Part shown: positions 1 to 45,643 of the stretch, piece after piece
Position numbering within the stretch: position 1 is the first letter of the stretch
Layout of the letters: each line of letters begins with the position of its first letter
Assembly: GCA_041690595.1 (NCBI GenBank)
Contig: JAWLHB010000057.1
Coordinates: forward strand, 1 to 45,643
Length of the DNA: 45,643 nt
Origin: Lentisphaeria bacterium
GTDB lineage: Bacteria; Verrucomicrobiota; Lentisphaeria; JABSQK01; JAWLHB01
Direction: 5' to 3'
The notes under the pieces: model-generated
What the model saw: the letters and a program-made list of their open reading frames with translations, nothing else
Told to the model about the DNA's origin: nothing
The model's database searches: none
Made by a program: the position numbers and the translations under genes

Positions 1-150
1 GACGCAGTGGACGCAGTGGACGCAGTGGACGCAGTGGACGCAGTGGACGCAGTGGACGCAGTGGACGCAGTGGACGCAGTGGACGCAGTGGACGCAGTGG
101 ACGCAGTGGACGCAGTGGACGCAGTGGACGCAGTGGACGCAGTGGACGTG
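1..150. repeat. Perfect 9-bp tandem repeat (GACGCAGTG) x16, plus one partial copy. It runs off the 5' edge of the window.
   Basis: Read directly. Units start at positions 1, 10, 19 ... 136, and a degenerate copy begins at 145. The same repeat gives the (DAV)n translation of track ORF 7..234. Confidence 0.95.
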
Positions 151-871: not shown

Positions 872-915
872 CATGTCGGGGGCGGGAAGCTGGAGGCGGC
901 ATGTTAGGAGAGTGC

Positions 916-945
916 TTGACATGGGGTTTGGTTTGCTTCTATAGG
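916..945 (+). promoter_or_regulatory. Putative sigma70 promoter for the EncFtn-encapsulin operon: TTGACA at 916-921, 17-18-nt spacer, TATAGG at 940-945
   Basis: Near-consensus -35 hexamer and an A/T-rich -10 hexamer about 125 nt upstream of the 1070 start. The 13-bp palindrome TCGTGcgaCACGA at 965-977 lies just downstream. Confidence 0.4.
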
Positions 946-1069
946 TAGAAGCATTGGGTTCGCCTCGTGCGACACGAATAGAGAGTTGGGGAAGAGCGTG
1001 GGGCCAGAAGGGTCATGACGCGCTTGGAGCCCCGCTCGGAGGCGGCCGACACTTCAGCAGGAGTAGAGA

Positions 1070-1423
1070 ATGGAAACGGGATATCATGAAGAAGGTTTGT
1101 CCACCTTTGCGAAGGATCTTCATCGTGCACTGGTGAGTACGATGGAGGAGTTGGAGGCGGTGGATTGGTACAATCAGCGTATGGATGTGACGGGGGATGA
1201 GCAGTTGCGCAATATCCTGCGGCATAACCGCGACGAGGAGATCGAGCATGCCTGCATGATGCTGGAGTACCTGCGCCGGCTGATGCCAGAGTTCGATGAA
1301 CAGCTACGGACCTACCTGTTTACGGAGGCGCCGATCGAGCAGGTGGAAGAGCTGGCGGAATCGGGAGAAGGGGCTGACGTTGCCGCCGATCGCGGTTCTC
1401 TTCGCATCGGCAAGTTGAGTTGA
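1070..1423 (+). CDS. Encapsulin cargo: ferritin-like protein (EncFtn/Flp) with C-terminal cargo-loading peptide
   Basis: 117 aa. Contains an EEIEH (ExxH) di-iron motif region. The C-terminus ...DRGSLRIGKLS matches the family-1 encapsulin targeting-peptide consensus (GSLxIGxL). AGGAG Shine-Dalgarno 6 nt upstream. It sits immediately upstream of the shell gene. Confidence 0.85.
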   Translation: METGYHEEGLSTFAKDLHRALVSTMEELEAVDWYNQRMDVTGDEQLRNILRHNRDEEIEHACMMLEYLRRLMPEFDEQLRTYLFTEAPIEQVEELAESGEGADVAADRGSLRIGKLS

Positions 1424-1444
1424 AGATAAACAGGAGAGATCCAT

Positions 1445-2245
1445 ATGAGTATTTTGAAGCAGCACCTTGCCCCGATAACCGAAGGTGGGTGGGCAGAGAT
1501 CAATGAGCAGGCGAAGCGGACACTGTCGGCGAATCTGAGCGCTCGGCGCCTGGTAGATATCGTCGGGCCGCTTGGCTGGGAGGCGGCCGCGGTCAATCTT
1601 GGCAGACAGGATGTACAGGAAGGTGGTCCGGTAGCTGGTGTGCGCTGGGGAATCCGGAACGTGCAGCCGCTGATCGAGCTGCGGACGGCTTTCGAGCTGA
1701 ATATCTGGGATCTGGACGATGTCGACCGGGGCAGCAAAGTGCCCGACCTGGACTCGCTGGAGGAGGCGGCGCTGAAGACGGCGACCTTCGAGGAGCAGTG
1801 CATTTACCTTGGCTGCGAACAGGCTGGAATCAGTGGCTTGCTGGCGAGCAGCGGACATGACAAGCTGCCACTGGGCGAAAACATCGACGACATGCTGGTG
1901 AATATCGAAACGGCACTCTTTCGGCTTCATACGAGTGGTGTCGAAGGGCCGTATGCGCTCGTGCTTGGCGGACAGCCGTACCGGGAGTTGCTTTCGGGCG
2001 CGCCGGGCTGTTTCCCGATACGGCAGCGAGTACTTGACCTGCTTGGCGGCGGGGGCATCTACTGGAGTCCCGCGCTGCAGCAGGGGCTGGTGGTCAGCAC
2101 CCGGGGCGGCGACTTCGAGCTGACGCTGGGGGTGGACACCTCGATCGGCTACGAGAGCCACACGACGGAGATGGTGCAGCTCTACTTCACGGAATCGTTC
2201 ACCTTCCGGGTGCTCGAACCGAAGGCGGTCATCGCCTTCACGTAG
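1445..2245 (+). CDS. Family-1 encapsulin shell protein (HK97 fold, linocin_M18 family)
   Basis: 266 aa. It aligns along its whole length with the T. maritima encapsulin as I remember it (…HLAPITEGGWAEINEQAKR…, …GPLGWEAAAVNLG…, …GGDFELTLGVDTSIGYESHT…FTESFTFRVLEPKAVI…). AGGAGA Shine-Dalgarno 7 nt upstream of the ATG. Confidence 0.9.
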   Translation: MSILKQHLAPITEGGWAEINEQAKRTLSANLSARRLVDIVGPLGWEAAAVNLGRQDVQEGGPVAGVRWGIRNVQPLIELRTAFELNIWDLDDVDRGSKVPDLDSLEEAALKTATFEEQCIYLGCEQAGISGLLASSGHDKLPLGENIDDMLVNIETALFRLHTSGVEGPYALVLGGQPYRELLSGAPGCFPIRQRVLDLLGGGGIYWSPALQQGLVVSTRGGDFELTLGVDTSIGYESHTTEMVQLYFTESFTFRVLEPKAVIAFT

Positions 2246-6770: not shown

Positions 6771-6846
6771 GGGGCTGTAGCTCAGTTGGTAGAGCGATTG
6801 GTTCGCAATCAATAGGTCAGGGGTTCGACTCCCCTCAGCTCCACCA
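6771..6846 (+). tRNA. tRNA-Ala (anticodon CGC)
   Basis: Cloverleaf folded by hand. Acceptor stem GGGGCUG/CAGCUCC with the G3:U70 alanine identity pair. Anticodon loop UUCGCAA. T-arm AGGGG-UUCGACU-CCCCU. CCA is encoded. Confidence 0.93.
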
Positions 6847-25545: not shown

Positions 25546-26973
25546 TCACGCATGACACCAATCGCGATAGACCTTGAGGACACCCTGCTGCGCGCAGGCG
25601 TTGCGGATAATGCCGGCGGCGCGTGTCGGCGGCACGAAAAGGAAGTGGCAAGCCTCGGTGAGCACACGGTTGTTCTGCAGGCGGGGCAACGCGGCCAGGA
25701 TGGCGCGCCCACGCTGGCAGAGGGCCGGATCGGCATGGAGAAAGCCACTGGCAAAGAGTAGTGGAACGGCCAGGTTGACGATGAGATCGTTGATGCGCGA
25801 CTCGCCCAGAAGGGCGGCGGGCTTACTCAACTGGCGGGTAAAGTCATAGAAGGGATGGTAGATCTCGCTATCGCCGCGGGCAAAGAGGTCGCGCAGCCGC
25901 TGCAGGGCGTGCGCCGGATCGTCGTCGCCGCTCATGACATCGATCAGCGCCTGGCCGGGACGATGGCGCGTGGCCACGAGGAAGAGCCAGGCAGCCAGTA
26001 CCCGCCGTTCCGGAGCATTGTAGGGGCGCATGCGCTGACGATTCCAGCGGATGGGGCGCCAGCTTTTGTGGTGCGGCCACCATGCTTGCCAGAGGCGCCG
26101 CAGCCAGAAGCGATGCTGATCGAGCACGGGCTGCTGGGAAGGATCCGGCAGCAGCCCACCGGCGCCCAGGAGCATGGCCAGGCCGGTCTCGTTATCGACC
26201 TGAGCGAGTCGCTCCAGCGGGAGAGCGTCGGCAAGTTGGGCAAAGGGTTCGCGATTGCTCTTGTAGCCCATGGCGTCGAGGAGGCGGGTATAGACGGTCT
26301 GCTCAAGGCCGGACGCGGTAATCTCGGCGCAGATGCGCTGTGCCTTGTGGAGGATGTGGGCGATGCCGTATGACTGAAAGAGGTCGCGCAGGAAGCCGTC
26401 GTTCATGTGGGCGATGGTCTGGGCCAGTTCGCCTGGCGGAACCTGCCGGGCGTAGGGGTAGGCGGTGAGATTGATCGTGTCGATGATCTCCGCGAGGGGT
26501 CTGTCGATGCACGTCTCGAGGGTGATGAGTGGAATGCCAAGCGGGTATTCGCGATGCCCATGGGGATTGTTCCAGACGACGTGGAGCACGACGTTGTCGT
26601 AGTCGCGGTTGTGCTGGTGGTGGTGCTGCGTCCATTGCTCGGGCTGGTGATGGATCTCGATGCTTCCGCGGCGCATGACGCCATCAACGACGATGACGGC
26701 ATCATGAAAATCCGGCCCGCTCTCGACGTTCCAAACGCCGCGATGGATGACGCGCAGATCCTGTCCCGCCACGCTCCGCAGGCTCTCGTGAACCAGCTGT
26801 TCGTTCCAGATCGCCTGCAGGAGCTTCTCCTGGAAGTAGGCTTCCTGCGGCTCGAAGAGAAAGAGACCTTCGCCGAAGAGGAGGGAGTAGAAACCATCCA
26901 GCGGCGTGGATGGTAAGACTGTTTCAGTTGATTTCACCGTGTGCCCGCAATAGTTTACTGGGTGATCAGCCAT
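25546..26973 (-). CDS. DUF2851-family protein (start uncertain, probably an internal non-ATG start)
   Basis: …LLQAIWNEQL…GPDFHDAVIVVDG…HGHREY… resembles DUF2851 as recalled. Confidence 0.5.
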   Translation of the reverse strand: MADHPVNYCGHTVKSTETVLPSTPLDGFYSLLFGEGLFLFEPQEAYFQEKLLQAIWNEQLVHESLRSVAGQDLRVIHRGVWNVESGPDFHDAVIVVDGVMRRGSIEIHHQPEQWTQHHHQHNRDYDNVVLHVVWNNPHGHREYPLGIPLITLETCIDRPLAEIIDTINLTAYPYARQVPPGELAQTIAHMNDGFLRDLFQSYGIAHILHKAQRICAEITASGLEQTVYTRLLDAMGYKSNREPFAQLADALPLERLAQVDNETGLAMLLGAGGLLPDPSQQPVLDQHRFWLRRLWQAWWPHHKSWRPIRWNRQRMRPYNAPERRVLAAWLFLVATRHRPGQALIDVMSGDDDPAHALQRLRDLFARGDSEIYHPFYDFTRQLSKPAALLGESRINDLIVNLAVPLLFASGFLHADPALCQRGRAILAALPRLQNNRVLTEACHFLFVPPTRAAGIIRNACAQQGVLKVYRDWCHA

Positions 26974-27006
26974 TGTGTTTCAATCCTTTAAGCGAGGAAC
27001 CCTGCT

Positions 27007-28416
27007 GTGCGTCCACTGCGATACCTGTTCTGCCTGTTGGCCGCGTCGTGCTTTGGCACGGCACTGGCACAAGATACGAACGGCACCGGCGCACCGTCCG
27101 GCACCGACAAACGGTCCAGTCGCCAGACGCCGGTTACGAACGCCGTGGCCAAAGCCCTCCCATCGGTTGTGAATATCAGCACGGAGCGGATAATCTCGCA
27201 ACAATATCGCAGATATGGCTCCAATGATCCCTTTTCTGACTTTTTCAATCAGTACTTTGGCCCTTCAGAACGCCATTACAAGACCAATTCTCTGGGCAGC
27301 GGGGTGATCATTGACTCGTCGGGTTTGATCATCACGAATGACCATGTCGTGCAGCGGGCGTCGCGAATCCTGATCACTCTCGCCGATGGCACCAATCTGG
27401 AAGCAACGCCCGTCGCCACCGACGAGAAGAACGATCTCGCCCTCCTTCGCATCAATGAAGTGCCTCCCAGCCTGAAGCTGGTTGCCATCGAATTTGCTGA
27501 GCCGGATGATCTGATCCTCGGCGAGACGGTGATCACCGTCGGCAATCCCTTCGGGCTCGGGCAAAGCGTCGCAGCCGGAGTTCTCAGCGCGATCGGCCGG
27601 AAAGCGATTCATGAAGGCGACATTCTCTTCGACGACATCCTGCAGACGGATGCCGCCATCAACCCCGGCAACAGCGGCGGGCCGCTGGTCAATGTCAACG
27701 GCCAGATGATCGGCATTAACCTGGCGATTCAGCGCGATGCGGAAGGTATCGGCTTTGCGATACCGCTGAGGCGCATCGAGGACATCGTCTGCCACTGGCT
27801 GATACCCGAGCGATTCAATCAAGCCGACCTGGGGCTGGTGCCAGGCACCCGAAGTGCAAGCCCCGGCCAGGTTCAGGCCATCGTGGTCGAAGTGCGCCCG
27901 GAGAGTCCTGCCGCAAAGGCCGGGCTCAAGGAGGGCGATGTCATTCTTCGCGTCGATGGTGAAGAGGTGCAGCAGGGGCTGGTGGTCAGTCGACATCTCT
28001 GGCACCTGCAACCGGGCAAGAGCGTGAGCCTGGCGCTGGCCGACGGGCGTACTCTGGAAATCACGCTGGAGGTAATGCCCCGCCTGAGTGGTCCCGAGCT
28101 GGCGCGAGAGAGGTTGCAGGTCGAACTGCAGGAGCTGACCCCACGCCTCGCGAGCGCGCTCAAGTTGCCCTACTCCCGCGGACTGGTGGTGACCGACATC
28201 GAGGAGAAGGGAGTGCTCGGCCGCCGGGGCGTGATCAAGGGCGACGTCATCATTCAGGCCGGCGAAGTACCCGTCTCGGATTTCGGAGATTTCGCGCTGG
28301 CATTCGAGCATGTTCACGATGGCGATGTGATCGAATTGGTGGTGGATCGGGTGGTGGAGCGAGCGCGACATTACTTTTTACAGAGATTTGTTGTGGATAT
28401 CCCTTTCAGGCTGTGA
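27007..28416 (+). CDS. Periplasmic serine endoprotease DegP/HtrA family with two PDZ domains
   Basis: Signal peptide. Catalytic-triad motifs (TNDHVV, DLALL, GNSGGPLVN). GTG start. Confidence 0.9.
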   Translation: MRPLRYLFCLLAASCFGTALAQDTNGTGAPSGTDKRSSRQTPVTNAVAKALPSVVNISTERIISQQYRRYGSNDPFSDFFNQYFGPSERHYKTNSLGSGVIIDSSGLIITNDHVVQRASRILITLADGTNLEATPVATDEKNDLALLRINEVPPSLKLVAIEFAEPDDLILGETVITVGNPFGLGQSVAAGVLSAIGRKAIHEGDILFDDILQTDAAINPGNSGGPLVNVNGQMIGINLAIQRDAEGIGFAIPLRRIEDIVCHWLIPERFNQADLGLVPGTRSASPGQVQAIVVEVRPESPAAKAGLKEGDVILRVDGEEVQQGLVVSRHLWHLQPGKSVSLALADGRTLEITLEVMPRLSGPELARERLQVELQELTPRLASALKLPYSRGLVVTDIEEKGVLGRRGVIKGDVIIQAGEVPVSDFGDFALAFEHVHDGDVIELVVDRVVERARHYFLQRFVVDIPFRL

Positions 28417-28453
28417 ATTCGTTGCTATGTTAGGGTAACGGGAGATAGATACT

Positions 28454-28756
28454 GTGTTGAACCGAACCGCCTTGGCCATCCTGCTCTTCAGCTTGTTGGT
28501 TGCATTTGGCGCTTACCTTCTGGTTCCGACCATAAGTGAGCACCAGAAGACGAACCATGAATTGCAGCAGGCCAACCGCAAGCTGCTCGAGCACAAGGAA
28601 GAGAATCAGAAGCTGCGCAGCGAAATCCAGATGTTGAACAGTGACGCGCGTACCATCGAACGGGTGGCGCGAGACAAGTTCGGCTACGTCATGCCCAACG
28701 AGACGGTTTACGACTTCACCAAGCCCCTCCCCGCGCCGAAGCCTCGCATCCAGTAG
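28454..28756 (+). CDS. Cell division protein FtsB/DivIC-like (septum formation initiator)
   Basis: 100 aa with one N-terminal TM helix, a coiled-coil, and a C-terminal …RVARDKFGYVMPNETVY motif. Confidence 0.6.
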   Translation: MLNRTALAILLFSLLVAFGAYLLVPTISEHQKTNHELQQANRKLLEHKEENQKLRSEIQMLNSDARTIERVARDKFGYVMPNETVYDFTKPLPAPKPRIQ

Positions 28757-38422: not shown

Positions 38423-38698
38423 AAAAGATCGGTCGAAAGGTCGGTCCGTAAAACCTCGGTCCCACTTCCGAAAAGATCGGTCGAAAGGTCGGTCCATCGG
38501 CGCCACCCACTCGCGTCCGTTTCGTCCGTACACATCCCCGTCCCAGGAACGTCACGCCCTCCTGCTGCTGCATCGCTACCTCCCAAAAGATCGGTCGAAA
38601 GGTCGGTCCGCAAAACCTCGGTCCCACTTCCGAAAAGATCGGTCGAAAGGTCGGTCCATCGGCGCCACCCACTCGCGTCCGTTTCGTCAGACACATCC
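38423..38698. repeat. Duplicated ~115-bp element (copy 1 at 38423-38537, copy 2 at 38585-38698). Each copy has two 24-bp AAAGATCGGTCGAAAGGTCGGTCC motifs, giving four GGTCG-AAA-GGTCG direct-repeat sites in total.
   Basis: Read directly. The copies differ at 3-4 positions. Track ORFs 38295..38837 and 38335..38781 come from this repeat and are judged spurious. Confidence 0.85.
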
Positions 38699-39089
38699 GC
38701 GGCGCGCATCCCAAAGGCCATACTTCCCCTATTCCCATCCTTCCCTCTCCCGGGCATCCCACTACCCAAGCACGTTCCCACCCTTCATGACCTCTACATC
38801 TAACTATAAACATACACCCCCATAACCCAAAAGTCAAGCCCTAAAAACAAAAAGAGTACCCTTCCGCCCCGCCTCATGTAACATCCGTCCACGGACCGCG
38901 TCCACCAGGCGCCACATGCTCCGGGCTGCGTAGCTAATGGTTGTCGACAATCCGCTTCACCCCGGCTCGATAGCTGGCCGGGTCGACCGGCTTGCGCGTT
39001 GTCGCGTCAAGCTGCAAGCGTTGCGACTGGATGAGCCAGATAGCGATCCGAATATTGTCTCACCCGCCACACCATGTCCGACTTGTCCG

Positions 39090-39165
39090 ACTCGTCCGAC
39101 CACAGACCACCCCGCCTCCCCAGCGGGGACCGGGGCAGCTCCCCACCGATGGTCTCGCGTCCGCC
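39090..39165. repeat. REP-like GC-rich palindromic repeat, copy 1 (…ctcgtccgaccacagaccaccccgcctccccagcggggaccggggcagctcccc…)
   Basis: Shares the core CCTCCCCAGCGG(G/A)G(A/T)CCGGGGCAGC with the copies near 43011, 44289 and 44793. Lies immediately 3' of the 1251-aa gene. Confidence 0.75.
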
Positions 39166-39169
39166 CTCG

Positions 39170-42100
39170 CTACTCTCCTTCCCCAGTCTCCGCGGGAATG
39201 GGAACTGCCCGTAGCCCAGTTGTCGAGCAACGTTCACGGTCCCATGTGAAGAAGCATTCGGCTTCAACGGCAATCTCGCTCTCGTCTTGATTGGTCGAGT
39301 AAATAACGCGCGTGCCATTGCTTTGCAGCCAATCCTTCACCCCACCTGCCGTGCCACGCAAAAACGAGTCAGTCGATGCCAACAGCTCCCCCCATCCTGG
39401 TCGTTCGAGGGTGATCCTCTCGATAGCTCCGCTGGTTCCGACGAAGTCAATCCTGTATAGACCGATAATCTCATCCACTTGCCAGTTGAAGCCATTGGGT
39501 GCGGATATCGAAAACCCACTTTCCGGGTCCTCCACCACTGCCTCTTCCGGCAGCAACTGCAAGCGCTTCGTCCGTCCCCAGAAGACCCAGGCACGGGCAG
39601 CACTTATGCAAATGTCGACAATACTGGCACGTACGCTGTCACGCGTCGGAACGCCAACCTCAGGATGAAACGCAAAGTCAACCGTGGATGAGGCGATCCC
39701 CTGCCCCAACAACCTGTACTCCCTGCCCTCAAAATCGGCACGTTGCAGGCCCAGCGTCGCCGAATTCTCTGCAAGTATCAGCTGCTCTCCCTGCCAAAGC
39801 TCCACTCCTGGACCAATCGAGATCGAGTAGCTCCCTTCAGTAGACGCAGGCATATAGCTGTCGAAGTGAATACTGCCTGCCGTATTGGTCGCGATCAGCG
39901 CCCCATACAGCTCTTCGTTCAAGTCGCTCAGCCGATTCCCGGTGCCGTCGAAAATCGTCACGTCGACACCGATCACCGTGACCACCAGCTTCCCTCCCTG
40001 CGGCGTTGTCACCGTGTACTCCCCCGGATGCAGCCCCACAAAGCGGCTGCCATCATAATTGCCGACCCAGGCCGTACTCTCCGCGCACTCTATCCAGGCA
40101 GGAATACTCAGCACGTGGCGCTCCGTCCACGGCTCGCCCGAATCCCATTGGCCATTGCTGTTCAGATCCAGATACTCCGATTCCACCGGATCTCTCACGC
40201 CATTCAAGGGAATCGCACTGCACTCATACCACACGTTCGCCTGAACAGGCAATTCCTGCCCGGGCTGCACATACGGCGTGGCGCAGCCGATGATCACCCC
40301 GATCTGCTTGAGGCTGACGTCAAGATGGACATCGTCACCGGCTCCACCACCTGCGCCTCCTCGGTCGACGTTCATAGCGGCCAATGCCCCTTGTACCTGC
40401 TTCAGTTCTTCCACCGTTCCGAAGCGGTTGCTCCAGACCTCTCCCGTCGTCGTTCCATCCAGCCACAGCCGCAGCGTCTCCACCTTTTTCTTCTGCTCGT
40501 GAAGATCGCTGATCTTCTGGGCCGTGAAGGTTGCCCTCACCGGGGCGGACTCGTTGCCGGCACGGTCGACGGCCACCACCTCCACGGTGCATGTCTCGCC
40601 TTCCGTCAGGCCACTGATTGTTCTGGTGTTGACCACCGCGGCATCCTGCGGTTCGCCATTCACCTTATACTGCACGGCGTCCAACGAAGGTGATGGCAGC
40701 CACATGGCGACGCCGCCGACTGCATCAACCGACGGATACGCATGCAGGGGGCCTGGGGGCTCCGGAGGCGTGGTGTCCTTGCCGTAATACAGACGGCTCC
40801 ATGTCACATTCTCCGCACTGTCCTCCAGCATCACAAAAACGTAGTGAAGCCCTTCTTCAGCATCGAGATCCACGGATACGGGCCCTGGTTCGTCAAGGAT
40901 GTACGCATAGGTAGCAGGGTCCGAATAGTGCGTGATTGTGAGCGTGTAGGGCGGCAGCCCTCCACCAATGCTGCCGCTCAGACATACCTTGTCGCCCGAC
41001 GTCCAGAACAACGAGTCGGGCTCAGCTCCGTCGAGAACGAGACGCAGCTCGTCCTGATAGAGGAATGGCAACGACGCCTCACCCCATTCTGTCGAGACCA
41101 CCACGTCGACTGTCCCAGGCGCACAAGCTGGAGACAAAGCCTTCATCTCTCCACGGTGCAGCAAACTCACCTCTCGTGCTGGAACGCCGCCAAAGGTTAC
41201 GGCTGTCTCGCCAGTGAACCACGATCCGGAAAGGGTTATCCATTTGCCTCCACTGGCAGTGTCGAAAGCTGGCTGCACCTGCACCAGCGTCGGAGGCCGC
41301 GGAACGGCAATATCAAACCTGCTGACCGCACTGGTCACGTTTCCCGCCACATCCTTGGCCAGGATGAACAGGCTGTAGGTACCGTTCTCCCAATCCATCG
41401 CAGGCGTGTACGTTAGCTCTCCATTCTCCAGTGTGGGCGTGAGTTCCCCAATCGGATCGACGGACAAGCTGACGGATTCCAGCGCGATTCCACTAAGCTC
41501 ATCGGCAAGTCGTGCCCGAATAGTCGGACGCGAAGTCGTCAGTTCGGCTCTGTTGGCAGGAAAGAGCACCTCCAGTTCCGGAGGCGTCAGATCGAGCTTC
41601 ACCTCGACAGTCGATGGCTCTTCCTCATTGCCATGCAGATCGATACTGTAGAAGGTCAAGGTATGCAGGCCTTCTGTCTGGATGATGGCATGGACGCCCG
41701 TCTCCATGGCTCCACCATCGATGCTGAAGCGAGTCATGGCCAAGCCGAATTCATCTGTCGCCGACAGGATAATGAACGCCGATTCCGAACTCCACTGCCC
41801 ATCATGCTCATAGTCATGCACGGTCACTGGTGGAGTCGTATCGGGTGGGTCCATCTGGTCGAAGGCAAAGACGACCGCCCCGGGAATGGCGATCCTTTCA
41901 CTGAAGTGGGTACCTCCGGCATACTCTACACCGAACGTCACTTCAGGATGCGTCTCTGCCTCCACTCTGAAGCGCGCAATGCCTTCTCCGTTCGTTAGTT
42001 CCTCCATGCCAAGATAGGTGCTCTTGCTCGCATCCCACATCTGAACCACACGACCAGCGACCGGCTGATCGATCGCGGTAATCCTCACCGTCGTCAACAC

Positions 42101-42925
42101 TGGAGTATCCAGCACCGTTGATTCGGGCGCAGTGAGCACGTCGGTCCAAAGATCGATCCCACTCTCCTCGTGATCCACAAGCCGCAGCTTCACCGCGACC
42201 CCGGGGGAAACGTAGAACACCGCCTTCCCAGCGACAGTGGTCCGTCGCTCCTGGCCGAGGAAGATGCTCCCCGTTTCGTCCCAAAGCTGCACGCGACAAT
42301 CCCGCATCGACGCGCCGCCAGATGTGATCGTGACACACACCAGCGACAAGGCGGTAAGACCCTCTGCCGGAACTCCGGTCGAATCGGCCGCGAGGGGAAT
42401 GCTCGCGCATACACTCGCCGGTGCCGTAACGATGTCCGTGAAAAAGTGCCGCCCGGCATCCGTGACACGAAAGCGAAAGCGCTCATCCGCCGCGACCGGG
42501 AAGGATACCTCACCTGCCGTATCGCTCACCAGTCGCTCGCCCAGATAGGCCTTTCCCGATTCATCCCATAGCTCAACGATCCGTCCTCCCGCCGGTTGAT
42601 CCCCCCAGACAAGCGTGAGCACGGAACCGACAGGCAGGTCAATCGTGCCGCTTTCGTTTGCGGTCAGCAGCGGCGTCCAGAATGCGATCCCGCAATAACG
42701 CGTGCAGAATTTCAGCGATCGATCGGGAGCAAGGTCGAAGACTGCTCGTCCATCCCCTCCGGTCATCTCCGCAACTCCCGCAAAGACGCCGTCTTCACCA
42801 TACCCAAAGACAAATGCATTCGGACAGGGCTCGTTATCCACCCTCACCGTGATCGTCACCGGCCCTGCGTTTACACATCTCCATCCAACCAGAATCAGAA
42901 CCAGAATGGCTATCCTCATCACCAC
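39170..42925 (-). CDS. Large secreted multidomain cell-surface protein (tandem CarD/Cna-B-like modules, OmpL47-type/Ig-like and IPT/TIG-like domains)
   Basis: 1251 aa. N-terminal signal peptide. About three ~110-aa N-terminal repeats (…AGGRIVELWDESGKAYLG… / …RVQLWDETGSIFLG… / …RVVQMWDASKSTYLG…). A DGQW…YSIDLHGNEE… OmpL47-like motif. An IPT-like segment. Confidence 0.7.
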   Translation of the reverse strand: MVMRIAILVLILVGWRCVNAGPVTITVRVDNEPCPNAFVFGYGEDGVFAGVAEMTGGDGRAVFDLAPDRSLKFCTRYCGIAFWTPLLTANESGTIDLPVGSVLTLVWGDQPAGGRIVELWDESGKAYLGERLVSDTAGEVSFPVAADERFRFRVTDAGRHFFTDIVTAPASVCASIPLAADSTGVPAEGLTALSLVCVTITSGGASMRDCRVQLWDETGSIFLGQERRTTVAGKAVFYVSPGVAVKLRLVDHEESGIDLWTDVLTAPESTVLDTPVLTTVRITAIDQPVAGRVVQMWDASKSTYLGMEELTNGEGIARFRVEAETHPEVTFGVEYAGGTHFSERIAIPGAVVFAFDQMDPPDTTPPVTVHDYEHDGQWSSESAFIILSATDEFGLAMTRFSIDGGAMETGVHAIIQTEGLHTLTFYSIDLHGNEEEPSTVEVKLDLTPPELEVLFPANRAELTTSRPTIRARLADELSGIALESVSLSVDPIGELTPTLENGELTYTPAMDWENGTYSLFILAKDVAGNVTSAVSRFDIAVPRPPTLVQVQPAFDTASGGKWITLSGSWFTGETAVTFGGVPAREVSLLHRGEMKALSPACAPGTVDVVVSTEWGEASLPFLYQDELRLVLDGAEPDSLFWTSGDKVCLSGSIGGGLPPYTLTITHYSDPATYAYILDEPGPVSVDLDAEEGLHYVFVMLEDSAENVTWSRLYYGKDTTPPEPPGPLHAYPSVDAVGGVAMWLPSPSLDAVQYKVNGEPQDAAVVNTRTISGLTEGETCTVEVVAVDRAGNESAPVRATFTAQKISDLHEQKKKVETLRLWLDGTTTGEVWSNRFGTVEELKQVQGALAAMNVDRGGAGGGAGDDVHLDVSLKQIGVIIGCATPYVQPGQELPVQANVWYECSAIPLNGVRDPVESEYLDLNSNGQWDSGEPWTERHVLSIPAWIECAESTAWVGNYDGSRFVGLHPGEYTVTTPQGGKLVVTVIGVDVTIFDGTGNRLSDLNEELYGALIATNTAGSIHFDSYMPASTEGSYSISIGPGVELWQGEQLILAENSATLGLQRADFEGREYRLLGQGIASSTVDFAFHPEVGVPTRDSVRASIVDICISAARAWVFWGRTKRLQLLPEEAVVEDPESGFSISAPNGFNWQVDEIIGLYRIDFVGTSGAIERITLERPGWGELLASTDSFLRGTAGGVKDWLQSNGTRVIYSTNQDESEIAVEAECFFTWDRERCSTTGLRAVPIPAETGEGE

Positions 42926-43010
42926 GCTACTCCATCAATAGATGTCGCAGTTTGCAGATCCCTTTGCTACTATAGCGACACCTGCGGTCGCAGACCAGCA
43001 GAGTATCGAG

Positions 43011-43062
43011 TGGTCTGGGGAGGTGCTGCCTCCCCAGCGGGGTCCGGGGCAGCGCTCCGCGC
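43011..43062. repeat. REP-like palindromic repeat, copy 2 (GGTCTGGGGAGG-tgctg-CCTCCCCAG hairpin plus a GGGGC-agc-GCTCC hairpin)
   Basis: Read directly. Nearly identical to copy 4. Confidence 0.8.
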
Positions 43063-43098
43063 GTCGTGCAGATAGAAAAAGATGCTGCAAGCCGCACA

Positions 43099-43659
43099 TC
43101 AGGCCGAACTGCTCAACTTGCGCATTGCATGAATGAATCCAGCAGACAGAAGCACAACATTTCCACTACTGTAGGAAACAGCATCGTCCATGCCCCTATA
43201 TATACATCGACATACCGAAGCTACACTTCGAAACATCTCCAACCTTCCAACACCACGACGGTCCTTTTTACTAACCACCTCGAACACCAGCGAGCATCTT
43301 GGCAATAGCACGGACTTGAACTGCTCCCAAAAAGATGGCGAAACAATGATGAACTGCTCGTCTCTTCCATCATCAAGCACAATCCACTCCTTTGGCGTCA
43401 GAAAAGCCAATCCTCCTCCAAGCTCTATTAAAGACGGATTGCGTTCACCTTGTGGCGCATTTTCCCCGAAGACTATCTCACCACGGTTTCCAAACAGGCC
43501 GCGAAACTCAAACGTAGCCACCGCCACATCATCTGAATACCACGTAAACCGATGTTTCCTGAAAACCACAACATACTTATCCCGGCAATCCACGGGTAAG
43601 CATCCAGCCTCAACCTGAAACACCGTGAAAAGAAGATTAGCATGTATGCTCAGAAACAT
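43099..43659 (-). CDS. Hypothetical cytoplasmic protein in the lower-GC islet
   Basis: 186 aa with no recognisable family. Local GC is visibly lower than its surroundings. Confidence 0.45.
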   Translation of the reverse strand: MFLSIHANLLFTVFQVEAGCLPVDCRDKYVVVFRKHRFTWYSDDVAVATFEFRGLFGNRGEIVFGENAPQGERNPSLIELGGGLAFLTPKEWIVLDDGRDEQFIIVSPSFWEQFKSVLLPRCSLVFEVVSKKDRRGVGRLEMFRSVASVCRCIYRGMDDAVSYSSGNVVLLSAGFIHAMRKLSSSA

Positions 43660-43718
43660 CTGTTTATCCTGCTGATCATGTCAGAAACAATCAAGGGAAG
43701 TCATGAAGCCTTGACGTT

Positions 43719-44198
43719 TTAGCAAGTCATACACGTACTCCGCCTAACCTTGATCAACGTATACCCAAACAAGAATCCCCCGGCACCGAGCAGAAGATAC
43801 ACAGTGCAGTCGCCAATCCAAAATGGATCGGCAAGTACTACCAGCGCTACGGGAGGAGATTGGCTCAGCCAAAGCGCCAGGTAAAATGCAAGGCCCTTGG
43901 CTATCCAAAGGGAGAACGACAAGGTGACGCATATCAAGAACACGGCAACTATGGACTCGAGAGGATTCCTGAGCAAATACACCACCATCGCCGAGTTAAT
44001 GAAGATGACAAATAGCAGCAGATATCCAGAAAGCTCAAGCGGAACCTCAAATCCCAAGACAAGGAGCTCAACATCGCCTGGGCCGAGACGGAACCTGCTC
44101 ACAAACAAACCGAGCCATGCGATCACATACAACACGTGAACCGCCAGTTCGACCATAGCTGCCATAAGTAGTCTGGTCATCGTCATTCCAAGCGCCAT
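43719..44198 (-). CDS. Hypothetical integral membrane protein (4-5 TM helices) in the lower-GC islet
   Basis: 159 aa, strongly hydrophobic. Sits 59 nt upstream of the 186-aa gene on the same strand. Confidence 0.5.
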   Translation of the reverse strand: MALGMTMTRLLMAAMVELAVHVLYVIAWLGLFVSRFRLGPGDVELLVLGFEVPLELSGYLLLFVIFINSAMVVYLLRNPLESIVAVFLICVTLSFSLWIAKGLAFYLALWLSQSPPVALVVLADPFWIGDCTVYLLLGAGGFLFGYTLIKVRRSTCMTC

Positions 44199-44288
44199 TC
44201 TTTATTCAAGATTGTAGCTGCTTCGGCTGTCACTGACTTGCGTTGACATCGCCAACCATTCTCTCCGCCCCTTCCGACCCCGGCCGCC

Positions 44289-44365
44289 TCGTCCGACCAC
44301 AGACCACCTCGCCTCCCCAGCGGAGTCCGGGGCAGCGCCCCGCCGATCGTCCCCACGTCCCGTCC
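44289..44365. repeat. REP-like palindromic repeat, copy 3
   Basis: …ctcgtccgaccacagaccacctcgcctccccagcggagtccggggcagcgccccgccgatcgtcccc…. Confidence 0.75.
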
Positions 44366-44369
44366 GATT

Positions 44370-44720
44370 TCATTCCAGATTGAAGCCGCAGCGACGGCAC
44401 CGCTTTGGCCAACTCCCGATGAACCCCAGTGCTCTCTGGCAGGAAGGACATCTATAATTCCTCGTGTAGATAAAACTGGTGCATATGATCACTACCAAAG
44501 TGACCGCAATGCCGATGTATAACTCACCCATGATCATCTGCATCTTGGTCTCAATATCGGATTGATCGACAAAAGTCCAGTACAGAGCAAACATGCTCTG
44601 CGCGACCATAAGCAAAAGAGGAATCGTCGCCACAAGCATGCAGTTCCTCTTCCGCCTCTTCCAGATGCGTCTCAGGTCATCATCTTCCTCATTTCTCACT
44701 TCTGTTTCCACGCCAGACAT
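44370..44720 (-). CDS. Small membrane protein with C-terminal CxxC…CxxC zinc-ribbon
   Basis: 116 aa. Two hydrophobic helices, then CPSCQRALGF…CRRCG. Confidence 0.45.
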   Translation of the reverse strand: MSGVETEVRNEEDDDLRRIWKRRKRNCMLVATIPLLLMVAQSMFALYWTFVDQSDIETKMQMIMGELYIGIAVTLVVIICTSFIYTRNYRCPSCQRALGFIGSWPKRCRRCGFNLE

Positions 44721-44792
44721 CCTCGTCGCTGAGTTTCAACCCTACACTGTAGTCATCAGCATCATCGCTTGTCAAGCAACAAGACGTATCGA

Positions 44793-44880
44793 GGGGTCTG
44801 GGGAGGTGCTGCCTCCCCAGCGGGGTCCGGGGCAGCGCCCCGCCGATCGTCCCCGCGTCTCCGCGTCCCCGCGTCTCCCT
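44793..44880. repeat. REP-like palindromic repeat, copy 4
   Basis: …ggtctggggaggtgctgcctccccagcggggtccggggcagcgccccgccgatcgtccccgcgtctccgcgtccccgcgtctccc…. Confidence 0.8.
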
Positions 44881-44983
44881 TCACCGTCTCTTCATGCAGG
44901 CTTAACCGTTGGGCGCTCCGAAGCGGCGCCACGTCGACTACACTATAAGCAACACGAAAAGCATGAGACACAAGGAGACCAGT

Positions 44984-45469
44984 ATGACAACCAGAGACCA
45001 TCAGGTGCGGGAGCTCATCAGCCAGTTCCAGGAGCTCTTCCCGCCGGTACATTCACTCGACCTCGGCTTCCGCGATTGCGCCTGCCGCCTCTACTCCAAC
45101 GCCCCGCCCCTCCTCGACAAGCTGCGGCTCCATTACCACGGCTGCATCGCCGGCCGCGCCTCCCCGGAGCTGCTCATCACCCTCCTGCAGACGCCGCCCT
45201 TCCTCCTCGACGACGCCTACGACATCAAGCTCGCCGGCAGACGCGGCCCCACCATCGGCGGCGACGCCGTCGACGACCTCGATGGGCGACTCATCCACAA
45301 CCGCGAGTGCGGCATGCTCGCCCTGCTCGACAGCAACCGCTTCCTGATCATGGGACCGGGCCTGGAGAAGACCAGTGTCATCATCGACTTCATTTACGGC
45401 GTTTATCACCTCTGGCTCTGCCGGAAGTTGAGACAAAGCCAGTCGGCGCCCTGCCCGCAGTTGCCGTAA
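44984..45469 (+). CDS. Hypothetical protein (start chosen at ATG 44984, which has an AAGGAGA Shine-Dalgarno)
   Basis: 162 aa, no family recognised. The overlapping 335-aa track ORF 44593..45600 is Arg/Pro-rich, spans the repeat, and is judged spurious. Confidence 0.4.
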   Translation: MTTRDHQVRELISQFQELFPPVHSLDLGFRDCACRLYSNAPPLLDKLRLHYHGCIAGRASPELLITLLQTPPFLLDDAYDIKLAGRRGPTIGGDAVDDLDGRLIHNRECGMLALLDSNRFLIMGPGLEKTSVIIDFIYGVYHLWLCRKLRQSQSAPCPQLP

Positions 45470-45643
45470 AGAGCGCGCCATTCTCGACACGCCCGGCAAG
45501 GCGGGAGGGGTTCTCCGAACCGCGACTTGCGCTTTGCCATCTCTCCAACTATGTATGCCTTCAAGTGTTCATGGCTAAAAGATCTCCAGATTTTTTGTGA
45601 ATGGCTGCGACGAGTGCGTCAATAAAATGTTGATAACTCTGGT

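What the first reader, a model, noticed from the sequence alone, without database searches (positions are those of the whole stretch)
43099..44720. Lower-GC islet of three small uncharacterised genes (two membrane proteins, one with a zinc ribbon, plus a 186-aa soluble protein) next to the giant surface protein
By eye, the 43.1-44.7 kb stretch is markedly more AT-rich than the rest of the window, which suggests horizontal acquisition. None of the three products resembles a known family. A membrane-protein/soluble-protein pair plus a small TM plus C4 zinc-ribbon protein, delimited by palindromic repeats, fits the general pattern of toxin-immunity or small anti-phage modules. I cannot assign a mechanism.
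Basis: partly seen in the sequence, partly recalled or inferred. Interest (0 to 1): 0.55.

Follow-up and report, generated by a model that had tools for sequence, protein, structure and literature searches.

The report
Low-GC islet of orphan membrane genes
A 1.6-kb stretch with clearly foreign-looking base composition carries three small genes that have no relatives in any searched database; it is an ordinary small accessory islet, and nothing found here shows it to be a toxin-immunity or anti-phage system.

Summary
Region 43099-44720 has GC 0.504, against 0.616 +/- 0.022 for same-size windows elsewhere (z = -5.1, lowest in the contig). It is also below the host's own intergenic DNA (0.56-0.61).

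Three minus-strand ORFs fill 85% of it, a packing reached by 0 of 3000 shuffles. Their third-position GC and codon usage are 3-7 sd from 24 Pfam-supported genes.
- p159 has 4-5 predicted transmembrane (TM) helices.
- p116 has two TM helices and a C-terminal CPSC-x13-CRRC zinc ribbon.
- p186 has no TM segment, and its coding evidence is the weakest.

All three are singletons among 5.8 billion proteins. None passes a curated cut-off in Pfam or NCBIfam, and PADLOC and PHROGs gave no significant match. Phage, plasmid and viral-contig searches found nothing.

The "palindromic repeats" are four same-orientation copies of a 65-68-nt, 74-77% GC element that looks like a REP (repetitive extragenic palindrome). 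Three sit just 3' of the giant gene, p186 and p116. One therefore splits the islet into two cassettes. They lack integron attC motifs.

Best reading: horizontally acquired or strain-variable orphan cargo in a mosaic region beside a truncated kinase gene and the contig end. A foreign origin is compositionally supported but not testable, because the closest sampled relatives are only 60% identical and not syntenic. The toxin-immunity or defence idea remains pure speculation. Interest is low.

The parts
43099..43659 (-). p186: 186-aa ORF with no TM segment. It is an orphan and its coding status is the least certain of the three.
   Evidence: ORF. GC 0.476, GC3 0.471. AGGA lies 7 nt before the ATG. 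Only a self-hit among 5.8 billion proteins. A full HMMER search of 1.84 billion representatives gave only a 25-residue Big_2-like motif match. Three-base periodicity is not significant. The AlphaFold2 single-sequence model has pLDDT 40.
43719..44198 (-). p159: 159-aa integral membrane protein with 4-5 predicted TM helices. It lies 59 nt upstream of p186, so the two probably share an operon.
   Evidence: ORF. Hydropathy. T makes up 0.49 of codon position 2, and periodicity beats all 1000 shuffles. Only a self-hit, which NCBI calls as 153 aa.
44370..44720 (-). p116: small membrane protein. It has a charged N-terminus (RRIWKRRKRN), TM helices at about 28-50 and 62-86, and a C-terminal zinc ribbon CPSC-x13-CRRC. 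NCBI calls it as 89 aa starting at M28.
   Evidence: The AlphaFold2 model shows a two-helix hairpin at pLDDT 67, with the ribbon unresolved. Weak sub-threshold matches to PRK02935 (22.7 bits, cut-off 108) and PF11023 DUF2614 (16.5 bits, cut-off 21).
44746..44775 (-). Sigma70-like promoter match TTGACA-18-TACAGT, ending 26 nt upstream of the p116 ATG.
   Evidence: 10 of 12 positions match. The region holds no more such sites than its shuffles, so this is a consensus match only.
43003..43067 (+). REP-like repeat, type A, with a 9-bp hairpin CTGGGGAGG-TGCTG-CCTCCCCAG. It lies just 3' of p186, between p186 and the giant gene.
   Evidence: GC 0.738.
44284..44351 (+). REP-like repeat, type B. It shares the core with type A but has a different left arm. 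It lies just 3' of p116 and splits the islet in two.
   Evidence: It is 90% identical to the copy at 39087-39154. GC 0.765.
44786..44850 (+). REP-like repeat, type A, the most complete copy. It lies between p116 and the diverging kinase fragment and is followed by a 16-nt tandem at 44848-44878.
   Evidence: It is 92% identical to the copy at 43003-43067.
39087..39154 (+). REP-like repeat, type B, just 3' of the giant surface-protein gene.
39170..42925 (-). Context: a 1251-aa secreted or surface protein with Ig-like domains. Its composition is the most atypical among the Pfam-supported genes.
   Evidence: Pfam Big_13, Big_7 and TIG. GC3 0.662 and codon score 0.034, both the lowest of 24 genes.
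44909..45469 (+). Context: a truncated HprK-related kinase B gene holding only the N-terminal ~40% of the family profile, with host-like GC3 of 0.87.
   Evidence: TIGR04355 profile positions 3-135 of 351, E 4.8e-13. No continuation in other frames. The last 104 nt of the contig have GC 0.40.

Best explanation
The islet is a small piece of accessory ('flexible') DNA of foreign or strain-variable origin. It sits in a mosaic, repeat-rich stretch of an otherwise ordinary chromosomal contig from a poorly sampled PVC-type bacterium.

It consists of two low-GC cassettes, not one module:
- **p159-p186:** a 4-5-TM inner-membrane protein followed 59 nt later by a non-membrane ORF. These are probably one transcript.
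- **p116:** a monocistronic small membrane protein with its own sigma70-like promoter match. Its N-terminus and its C-terminal C4 zinc ribbon are both predicted to face the cytoplasm, on either side of a two-helix membrane hairpin.

Each cassette, and the neighbouring giant surface-protein gene, is followed at its 3' end by a copy of a host-type, GC-rich, hairpin-forming REP-like element. These elements most plausibly act as mRNA 3' stabiliser or terminator structures and as recombination substrates that let cassettes be gained and lost.

**Shown:** the composition, the ORF packing, the TM and zinc-ribbon features, the orphan status and the repeat layout.

**Inferred:** foreign origin, operon structure, membrane topology and the role of the repeats.

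The most likely product function is small, dispensable envelope-associated proteins. No specific biochemical activity can be assigned.
For: **Composition.**
- GC is 0.504, at z = -5.1 and the lowest of all same-size windows.
- GC3 and codon usage lie 2.8-6.9 sd from 24 Pfam-supported genes.
- The islet's ORFs and spacers (0.42-0.51) are below the host's intergenic GC of 0.56-0.61. This argues for a lower-GC donor rather than host non-coding DNA.

**Coding.**
- ORF packing is reached by 0 of 3000 shuffles.
- Periodicity is significant for p159 and p116.
- The basic stretch before TM1 of p116 fits the positive-inside rule, and CPxC...CxxCG is a classical zinc-ribbon pattern.

**Orphan status.** Each protein is a singleton among 5.8 billion proteins. 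p186 was also searched against 1.84 billion representatives without a word filter.

**Two units.** Repeat B and a 171-nt gap separate p116 from p159, and a promoter match lies upstream of p116.

**Host linkage.** The same repeat family lies inside the islet, on both sides of it, and 3' of the giant gene. All copies have one orientation, and 0 matches are expected by chance.

**Mosaic surroundings.** A truncated HprK-related kinase B gene, another GC-0.40 stretch and the contig end lie within 900 nt. The giant gene is also compositionally atypical.
Against: - No integrase, transposase, tRNA or other mobility mark lies next to the islet. The only tRNA is at 6771.
- There is no match in phage, plasmid or viral collections that would name a donor.
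- No close relative was available to show presence or absence. In so poorly sampled a lineage, orphan status alone is weak evidence.
- p186 has no significant codon periodicity, and its structure model has low confidence.
- The repeat folds are no more stable than composition-matched shuffles (z -0.5 to -1.4, and +1.3 for one copy). No U-tract follows them, so a terminator role is unproven.
Confidence: 0.55

Rival explanations
1. The ORFs form a toxin-immunity or small anti-phage module. A membrane protein (p159 or p116) would act as a membrane-disrupting effector or an immunity protein, p186 as its partner, and the zinc-ribbon protein as a sensor or regulator.
For: Only generic features support this:
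- small genes that are orphans and compositionally foreign;
- a membrane-protein/non-membrane-protein pair 59 nt apart;
- a small 2TM protein.

Small TM effectors and fast-evolving immunity genes are common in conflict systems. This last point is general knowledge and was not tested here.
Against: - PADLOC gave no hits at E <= 1.
- No toxin, antitoxin, immunity, Abi or SUKH family appears in Pfam or NCBIfam.
- PHROGs gave only E 0.22 noise.
- No known defence, secretion-system or polymorphic-toxin gene was identified in the 45.6-kb contig.
- A systematically recurring defence system would be expected to have homologues elsewhere, yet these proteins have none in 5.8 billion proteins.
- The three ORFs are split into two units by a repeat.
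Confidence: 0.1
2. The region is decaying or non-functional DNA. It would be the remnant of an old insertion or of broken genes, and the three ORFs (or at least p186) would be fortuitous or no longer expressed. The T-rich minus strand would make spurious ORFs look like membrane proteins.
For: - p186 shows no significant three-base periodicity (90 of 1000 shuffles reach it).
- Single open stretches of 193 codons or more occur in 6% of shuffles.
- The minus strand is 29% T and 31% G, which favours hydrophobic codons.
- The adjacent kinase gene is truncated.
- There are no homologues at all.
- The p186 structure model has pLDDT 40.
Against: - Joint same-strand ORF packing is reached by 0 of 3000 shuffles for the whole islet and for the p186+p159 block, and by 10 of 3000 for p116.
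- p159 and p116 have significant periodicity.
- The charged N-terminus, two TM helices and zinc ribbon of p116 are arranged in an ordered way.
- GC is below the host's non-coding level.
- Each start codon lies within 0-7 codons of the upstream in-frame stop.
Confidence: 0.2
3. The islet is a metagenome-assembly chimera. Low-GC DNA from another organism would have been joined in through the short repeats near a contig end.
For: - The islet lies within 2.5 kb of the contig end.
- It is flanked by 65-nt repeats that are 92% identical.
- All three proteins are reported from a single contig of 45643 nt, the same length as this window.
Against: - Host-like sequence resumes on the far side: the kinase fragment has GC3 0.87.
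- The same repeat family occurs inside the islet and 4 kb away next to the giant gene. A chimera would therefore need several independent mis-joins through a repeat unique to this genome.
- The repeat core has no match in metagenome or viral collections.
Confidence: 0.05
4. The region is an integron-like cassette array. Each gene or gene pair plus its 3' repeat would be a mobile cassette, with the repeat serving as the recombination site.
For: - The gene-then-repeat layout is co-oriented and recurs three times: giant gene, p159-p186 and p116.
- The cassettes are small, orphan and compositionally atypical.
- The repeats form hairpins.
Against: - No RYYYAAC ... GTTRRRY pair (the attC R''/R' boxes) lies anywhere in 38-45.6 kb on either strand.
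- The best copy folds as a branched structure with two inner hairpins, not the single long imperfect hairpin of attC.
- No integrase gene was identified in the contig, although not every ORF was scanned.
- A 3.7-kb 'cassette' would be unusually large.
Confidence: 0.04

Closest known systems
Small low-GC genomic islets carrying orphan (ORFan) genes in bacterial chromosomes
   Same: The composition and codon usage are atypical. The genes are short and have no homologues. The islet lies in a repeat-rich, rearranged region next to a surface-protein gene and a broken gene.
   Different: No integrase, tRNA or direct-repeat att site marks the borders. Absence from relatives could not be shown.
UPF0295 / DUF2614 (PF11023; NCBIfam PRK02935; Bacillus YgzB), a family of unknown function
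   Same: p116 has the same architecture: two TM helices followed by a C-terminal C4 zinc ribbon. The weak alignment spans most of the profile (positions 14-93 of 118).
   Different: Scores are far below the curated cut-offs: 22.7 against 108 bits, and 16.5 against 21 bits. p116 also has an extra charged N-terminal segment. The match may be driven by TM composition. The family has no known function, so membership would explain little (one search found no functional study).
REP/BIME-type repetitive extragenic palindromes
   Same: The elements are 65-68 nt long, 74-77% GC, intergenic and present in several copies, with imperfect palindromes. Three of the four copies lie just 3' of genes. The left arms are mosaic, in two types, A and B.
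   Different: Only four copies can be seen, and all lie in 39-45 kb of this contig, with none in the other 39 kb. Genome-wide abundance is unknown, as is any RAYT (REP-associated tyrosine transposase). There is no match outside this contig.
Integron gene cassettes with attC sites
   Same: Co-oriented small orphan genes are each followed by a conserved hairpin-forming repeat.
   Different: The attC R''/R' consensus boxes are absent. No integrase was identified in the contig. The fold is branched rather than a single hairpin.

Membership tests
UPF0295 / DUF2614 (YgzB-like) for p116 | Score at or above the curated family cut-off | tested here: not met
   PRK02935 scored 22.7 bits against a cut-off of 108. 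PF11023 scored 16.5 bits against a gathering score of 21.
UPF0295 / DUF2614 (YgzB-like) for p116 | Two TM helices followed by a C-terminal CxxC...CxxC zinc ribbon | tested here: met
   TM helices at about 28-50 and 62-86, then CPSC-x13-CRRC at residues 91-111. The model shows a helical hairpin.
Known anti-phage defence systems (PADLOC-DB 2.0) | At least one protein matching a model of a known or candidate defence system | tested here: not met
   No families at E <= 1 for p186, p159, p116 or the neighbouring kinase fragment.
Toxin-antitoxin or polymorphic-toxin immunity modules | A recognisable toxin, antitoxin or immunity domain in either partner | tested here: not met
   Pfam and NCBIfam gave none. 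PDB sequence searches gave only E 0.16-0.2 noise. A by-eye resemblance of p186 residues 77-120 to SUKH immunity proteins got no support from any model.
Toxin-antitoxin or polymorphic-toxin immunity modules | Toxicity of one product, neutralised by the adjacent product | not testable with these tools
   This needs expression experiments.
Integron cassette array | attC sites with R'' (RYYYAAC) and R' (GTTRRRY) boxes 40-130 nt apart | tested here: not met
   No such pair lies in 38-45.6 kb on either strand. There are two in the whole window, both elsewhere.
Integron cassette array | An integron integrase (intI) nearby | tested here: inconclusive
   None was found among the Pfam-scanned genes of the contig. 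The contig ends 0.9 kb past the islet.
REP/BIME-like extragenic repeats | Short intergenic imperfect palindromes present in several copies | tested here: met
   Four copies against 0 expected. All are intergenic. Type A carries a perfect 9-bp hairpin.
REP/BIME-like extragenic repeats | Tens to hundreds of copies genome-wide, and often a RAYT transposase | not testable with these tools
   Only this contig of the genome is available. The core has no match in metagenome or viral collections or in 97 fetched loci.
Horizontally acquired genomic islet | Base composition and codon usage deviating from the host | tested here: met
   GC z = -5.1. Codon-score z = -4.3 to -6.9. GC is below the host's intergenic level.
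Horizontally acquired genomic islet | Absent from the same locus in close relatives | not testable with these tools
   The closest genomes are 60% identical in the flanking amylase-family protein and share no synteny. Metagenome hits are at most 59% identical.
Horizontally acquired genomic islet | Mobility marks at the borders (integrase, tRNA, att direct repeats) | tested here: not met
   The only tRNA is at 6771-6846. No flanking direct repeats exist other than the REP-like copies.
Big_2 Ig-like domain for p186 | A match to the domain over most of its ~80 residues | tested here: not met
   Pfam gave no hit. A profile built from the repeats of P0004 and P0005 matches only 25 residues at 14.8 bits. 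The E-values are inflated by eight near-identical repeats in the targets.

The most novel reading that the evidence does not exclude
The cassettes could encode a previously unseen, lineage-restricted membrane conflict system. For example, p116 (2TM plus cytoplasmic zinc ribbon) would act as a membrane-anchored sensor or effector, and p159-p186 as a membrane toxin/partner pair. The GC-rich repeat family would serve as the recombination site of a new cassette-exchange mechanism that also moves the giant surface-protein gene.
Probability: 0.06. Interest if true: 0.6.

Novelty: new member of a known kind. Interest (0 to 1): 0.2.

Why it matters
As it stands, the finding matters little. Small low-GC islets of orphan genes are common, and this one gives no handle on function.

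Its modest value is as a clean example from a very poorly sampled PVC-type lineage. Compositionally foreign mini-cassettes there are each capped by a host-type GC-rich palindromic repeat, next to a variable surface protein and a broken gene. If more genomes of this lineage appear, the locus would be a good place to test whether such repeats mediate gain and loss of accessory genes.

Tried and rejected
1. **Homology for all three ORFs.** The 5.8-billion-protein search returned only self-hits. Cluster look-up confirmed singletons. A full HMMER scan of 1.84 billion representatives with p186 gave two Big_2-repeat proteins. I rejected these: the match is a 25-residue motif at 14.8 bits, multiplied by eight near-identical target repeats.
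2. **Family libraries.** Pfam, NCBIfam, PADLOC and PHROGs gave nothing above cut-off. Alternative-frame ORFs also gave nothing.
3. **PDB sequence search.** Only noise for p186 and p116. p159 was not searched.
4. **Structure.**
   - The p116 model is a helical hairpin, and its Foldseek PDB hits all have E > 2.
   - The AFDB50 library was unavailable.
5. **Mobile-element origin.**
   - No DNA match in phages, and only a 31-nt match in one plasmid record.
   - No protein match in either collection.
   - No match in viral contigs.
6. **Relatives for presence/absence.** I used the flanking amylase-family gene in genome and metagenome collections. The best hits were 60% and 47-59% identical, with no synteny and no islet homologues. 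Exact look-ups of contig proteins were not on record.
7. **Repeat.**
   - No match in Rfam.
   - No match in the metagenome or viral scans, or in the fetched loci.
   - Its fold is not more stable than shuffles.
   - It lacks attC motifs.
   - It is not followed by a U-tract terminator.
8. **Literature.** Searches on YgzB and on HprK-related kinases found no functional studies.
Full report

Yes.

*Base composition.*
- Interval 43099-44720 has GC 0.504.
- Same-size windows in the rest of the contig average 0.6155 (sd 0.0216) and never fall below 0.571, so z = -5.1 (1-kb profile).
- At 200-nt resolution the dip forms two blocks: 43.1-44.2 kb at 0.45-0.52 and 44.4-44.7 kb at 0.47-0.51. A GC-rich segment (0.635 at 44201-44400) separates them.

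*The ORFs.* The three ORFs lie exactly where stated, all on the minus strand:
- 43099-43659, 186 aa ('p186');
- 43719-44198, 159 aa ('p159');
- 44370-44720, 116 aa ('p116').

*Codon composition.*
- Third-position GC is 0.47, 0.60 and 0.62, against 0.761 +/- 0.050 in 24 genes of this contig that have Pfam support.
- A leave-one-out synonymous-codon score places the three ORFs at z = -6.9, -5.2 and -4.3.
- Host intergenic DNA is 0.56-0.61 GC, whereas the islet's own spacers are 0.42-0.49.
- The islet is therefore more AT-rich than even non-coding host DNA.

**2. Are the ORFs genes?**

The evidence is mixed.

*Against reading too much into ORF length.* A single 193-codon open stretch occurs in 6% of dinucleotide shuffles of the region. 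The summed length of the top three open stretches is reached in 1.6% of shuffles.

*For coding.*
- The real arrangement is three non-overlapping ORFs on one strand covering 1392 of 1641 nt. No shuffle out of 3000 reached this for the whole islet or for the p186+p159 block. For p116, 10 of 3000 did.
- Three-base periodicity is significant for p159 (0 of 1000 shuffles reach it; T makes up 0.49 of codon position 2) and for p116 (1 of 1000). It is not significant for p186 (90 of 1000).

*Start sites.*
- p186 has AGGA 7 nt before its ATG.
- p116 has GAGG 6 nt before the internal M28, which NCBI uses as the start (89 aa). A TTGACA-18-TACAGT promoter match ends 26 nt before its first ATG.

I treat p159 and p116 as probably real and p186 as uncertain.

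**3. What do the products look like?**

- **p159.** Kyte-Doolittle analysis gives 4-5 TM segments.
- **p116.** It has an acidic-then-basic N-terminus (EEDDD...RRIWKRRKRN) and two TM helices at about 28-50 and 62-86. Five residues after the second helix comes CPSC-x13-CRRC-GF, a classical C4 zinc-ribbon pattern. By the positive-inside rule, both termini, and hence the ribbon, would be cytoplasmic; this is an inference. AlphaFold2 without an alignment gives a two-helix hairpin at pLDDT 67 with the ribbon unresolved. Foldseek against the PDB finds only generic helical hairpins with E > 2.

**4. Homology.**

*Database searches.*
- Each protein hits only itself among 5.8 billion proteins. Each is a one-member cluster from one NCBI contig of 45643 nt, the same length as this window.
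- A full HMMER scan of 1.84 billion representatives with p186 found two multi-repeat Big_2 proteins, at E 6e-8 and 5e-7.
  - The similarity is a 25-residue motif (FTWYSDDVAVATFEFRGLF against FSWASSDVAVATVDAGGLV).
  - It scores 14.8 bits against a profile of those repeats and is multiplied by eight near-identical repeats in the targets.
  - Pfam's Big_2 model does not hit.
  - I reject it as evidence.

*Family libraries.*
- Pfam, NCBIfam, PADLOC and PHROGs give nothing above cut-off.
- The only lead is p116 against PRK02935 and DUF2614, the YgzB family of unknown function, which has the same 2TM-plus-zinc-ribbon layout. The scores are 22.7 bits against a cut-off of 108, and 16.5 against 21. This is a resemblance in architecture, not membership.

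*Other collections.* PDB sequence searches for p186 and p116, phage and plasmid DNA and protein searches and viral-contig scans are all negative, apart from a single 31-nt DNA match in one plasmid record.

**5. The repeats.**

*Copies and sequence.*
- The 'palindromic repeats' are four copies of one family, all in the same orientation, at 39087-39154, 43003-43067, 44284-44351 and 44786-44850. None is expected by chance.
- They share the core GCCTCCCCAGCGGGGTCCGGGGCAGCGCCCCGCC and are 74-77% GC.
- They have two alternative left arms:
  - Type A (43003, 44786) carries a perfect 9-bp hairpin, CTGGGGAGG-TGCTG-CCTCCCCAG.
  - Type B (39087, 44284) does not.

*Position.*
- Three of the copies sit just 3' of a minus-strand gene or operon (giant gene, p186, p116). 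The fourth lies between p116 and the diverging kinase fragment.
- All four lie in 39-45 kb, and none in the other 39 kb.
- One copy therefore splits the 'islet' into two cassettes. The flanking pair is not specific to the islet.

*What they are not.*
- Their folds are not more stable than composition-matched shuffles, and no U-tract follows them.
- There is no Rfam match.
- The core is absent from the metagenome and viral collections and from 97 fetched loci.
- The integron attC boxes (RYYYAAC ... GTTRRRY) are absent.

'REP-like' is the best description.

**6. Context.**

*The contig.*
- It is ordinary chromosome. It encodes ProRS, RNase R, Obg, HtrA, SerA, a GH95 glycosidase, a TonB-dependent receptor, an encapsulin operon and a Ser/Thr kinase. 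It also encodes an N-methyl/DUF1559 protein typical of PVC bacteria.
- The closest sampled genomes are a Victivallales MAG and a 'Brocadiia' MAG. They are only 60% and 57% identical in the flanking amylase-family protein and are not syntenic. Metagenome hits are at most 59% identical.
- The presence/absence test was therefore impossible. Orphan status is also less striking than it would be in a well-sampled lineage.

*The islet's neighbours.*
- On one side is the 1251-aa Ig-domain surface protein, itself the compositional outlier among the Pfam-supported genes (GC3 0.66).
- On the other side is only the N-terminal ~40% of an HprK-related kinase B gene with host-like GC3 of 0.87. It has no continuation in any frame. 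A further GC-0.40 stretch and the contig end follow.
- The locus is thus a mosaic with signs of rearrangement.

**7. Interpretation.**

*Best reading (confidence about 0.55).* These are two small accessory cassettes of foreign or strain-variable origin. They encode dispensable small inner-membrane proteins (p159 with p186, and p116). Each is capped by a host REP-like element, which may stabilise or terminate transcripts and provide homology for gain and loss.

*Rivals.*
- Decaying or non-functional DNA, with p186 in particular being spurious: 0.2.
- A toxin-immunity or defence module: 0.1. It rests only on generic features, and no diagnostic domain, partner gene or recurrence elsewhere supports it.
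- An assembly chimera: 0.05. Host-type repeats inside and on both sides of the islet argue against it.
- An integron-like cassette array: 0.04. The attC boxes are absent and no integrase was identified.

**8. Verdict.**

The horizontal-acquisition inference is compositionally supported but unproven. The toxin-immunity or anti-phage suggestion is unsupported. This is an ordinary orphan islet: a new member of a known kind, of low interest unless future genomes or experiments give the orphan proteins a phenotype.

Noticed in passing
window 1-148: A perfect 9-nt tandem array, GACGCAGTG x16.4, lies at the very start of the contig. It may be why the assembly broke there.
   Followed up: no
window ~26500-28500: GC skew is positive over 1-27 kb and negative over 28-45.6 kb, although genes lie on both strands in the first part. 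The cumulative-skew maximum near 28 kb suggests a replication terminus region.
   Followed up: no
window 38423-38526 and 38585-38688: A 104-nt direct repeat, 99% identical with copies 162 nt apart and with internal sub-repeats, lies in the ~640-nt gap between the amylase-family gene and the giant gene. It is a second, unrelated intergenic repeat in the same atypical zone.
   Followed up: partly
window 44909-45643: The HprK-related kinase B gene (TIGR04355) holds only profile positions 3-135 of 351, and no other frame continues it. The last 104 nt of the contig drop to GC 0.40. This points to a truncated gene beside a second low-GC segment that runs off the contig.
   Followed up: partly
window 39170-42925: The giant Ig-domain surface-protein gene has the lowest GC3 (0.66) and codon-usage score of the 24 Pfam-supported genes. 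A REP-like repeat copy sits at each of its ends. The compositionally atypical zone is therefore about 39.2-44.7 kb, not just the islet.
   Followed up: partly
window 872-2245: An ordinary family-1 encapsulin operon. An encapsulin shell gene (Linocin_M18, 1445-2245) follows a small ORF that looks ferritin-like by eye and ends in ...GSLRIGKLS, which resembles a cargo-targeting peptide.
   Followed up: no
window 44848-44878: A 16-nt tandem, CGTCCCCGCGTCTCCG x1.9, directly abuts the repeat copy at 44786-44850.
   Followed up: no
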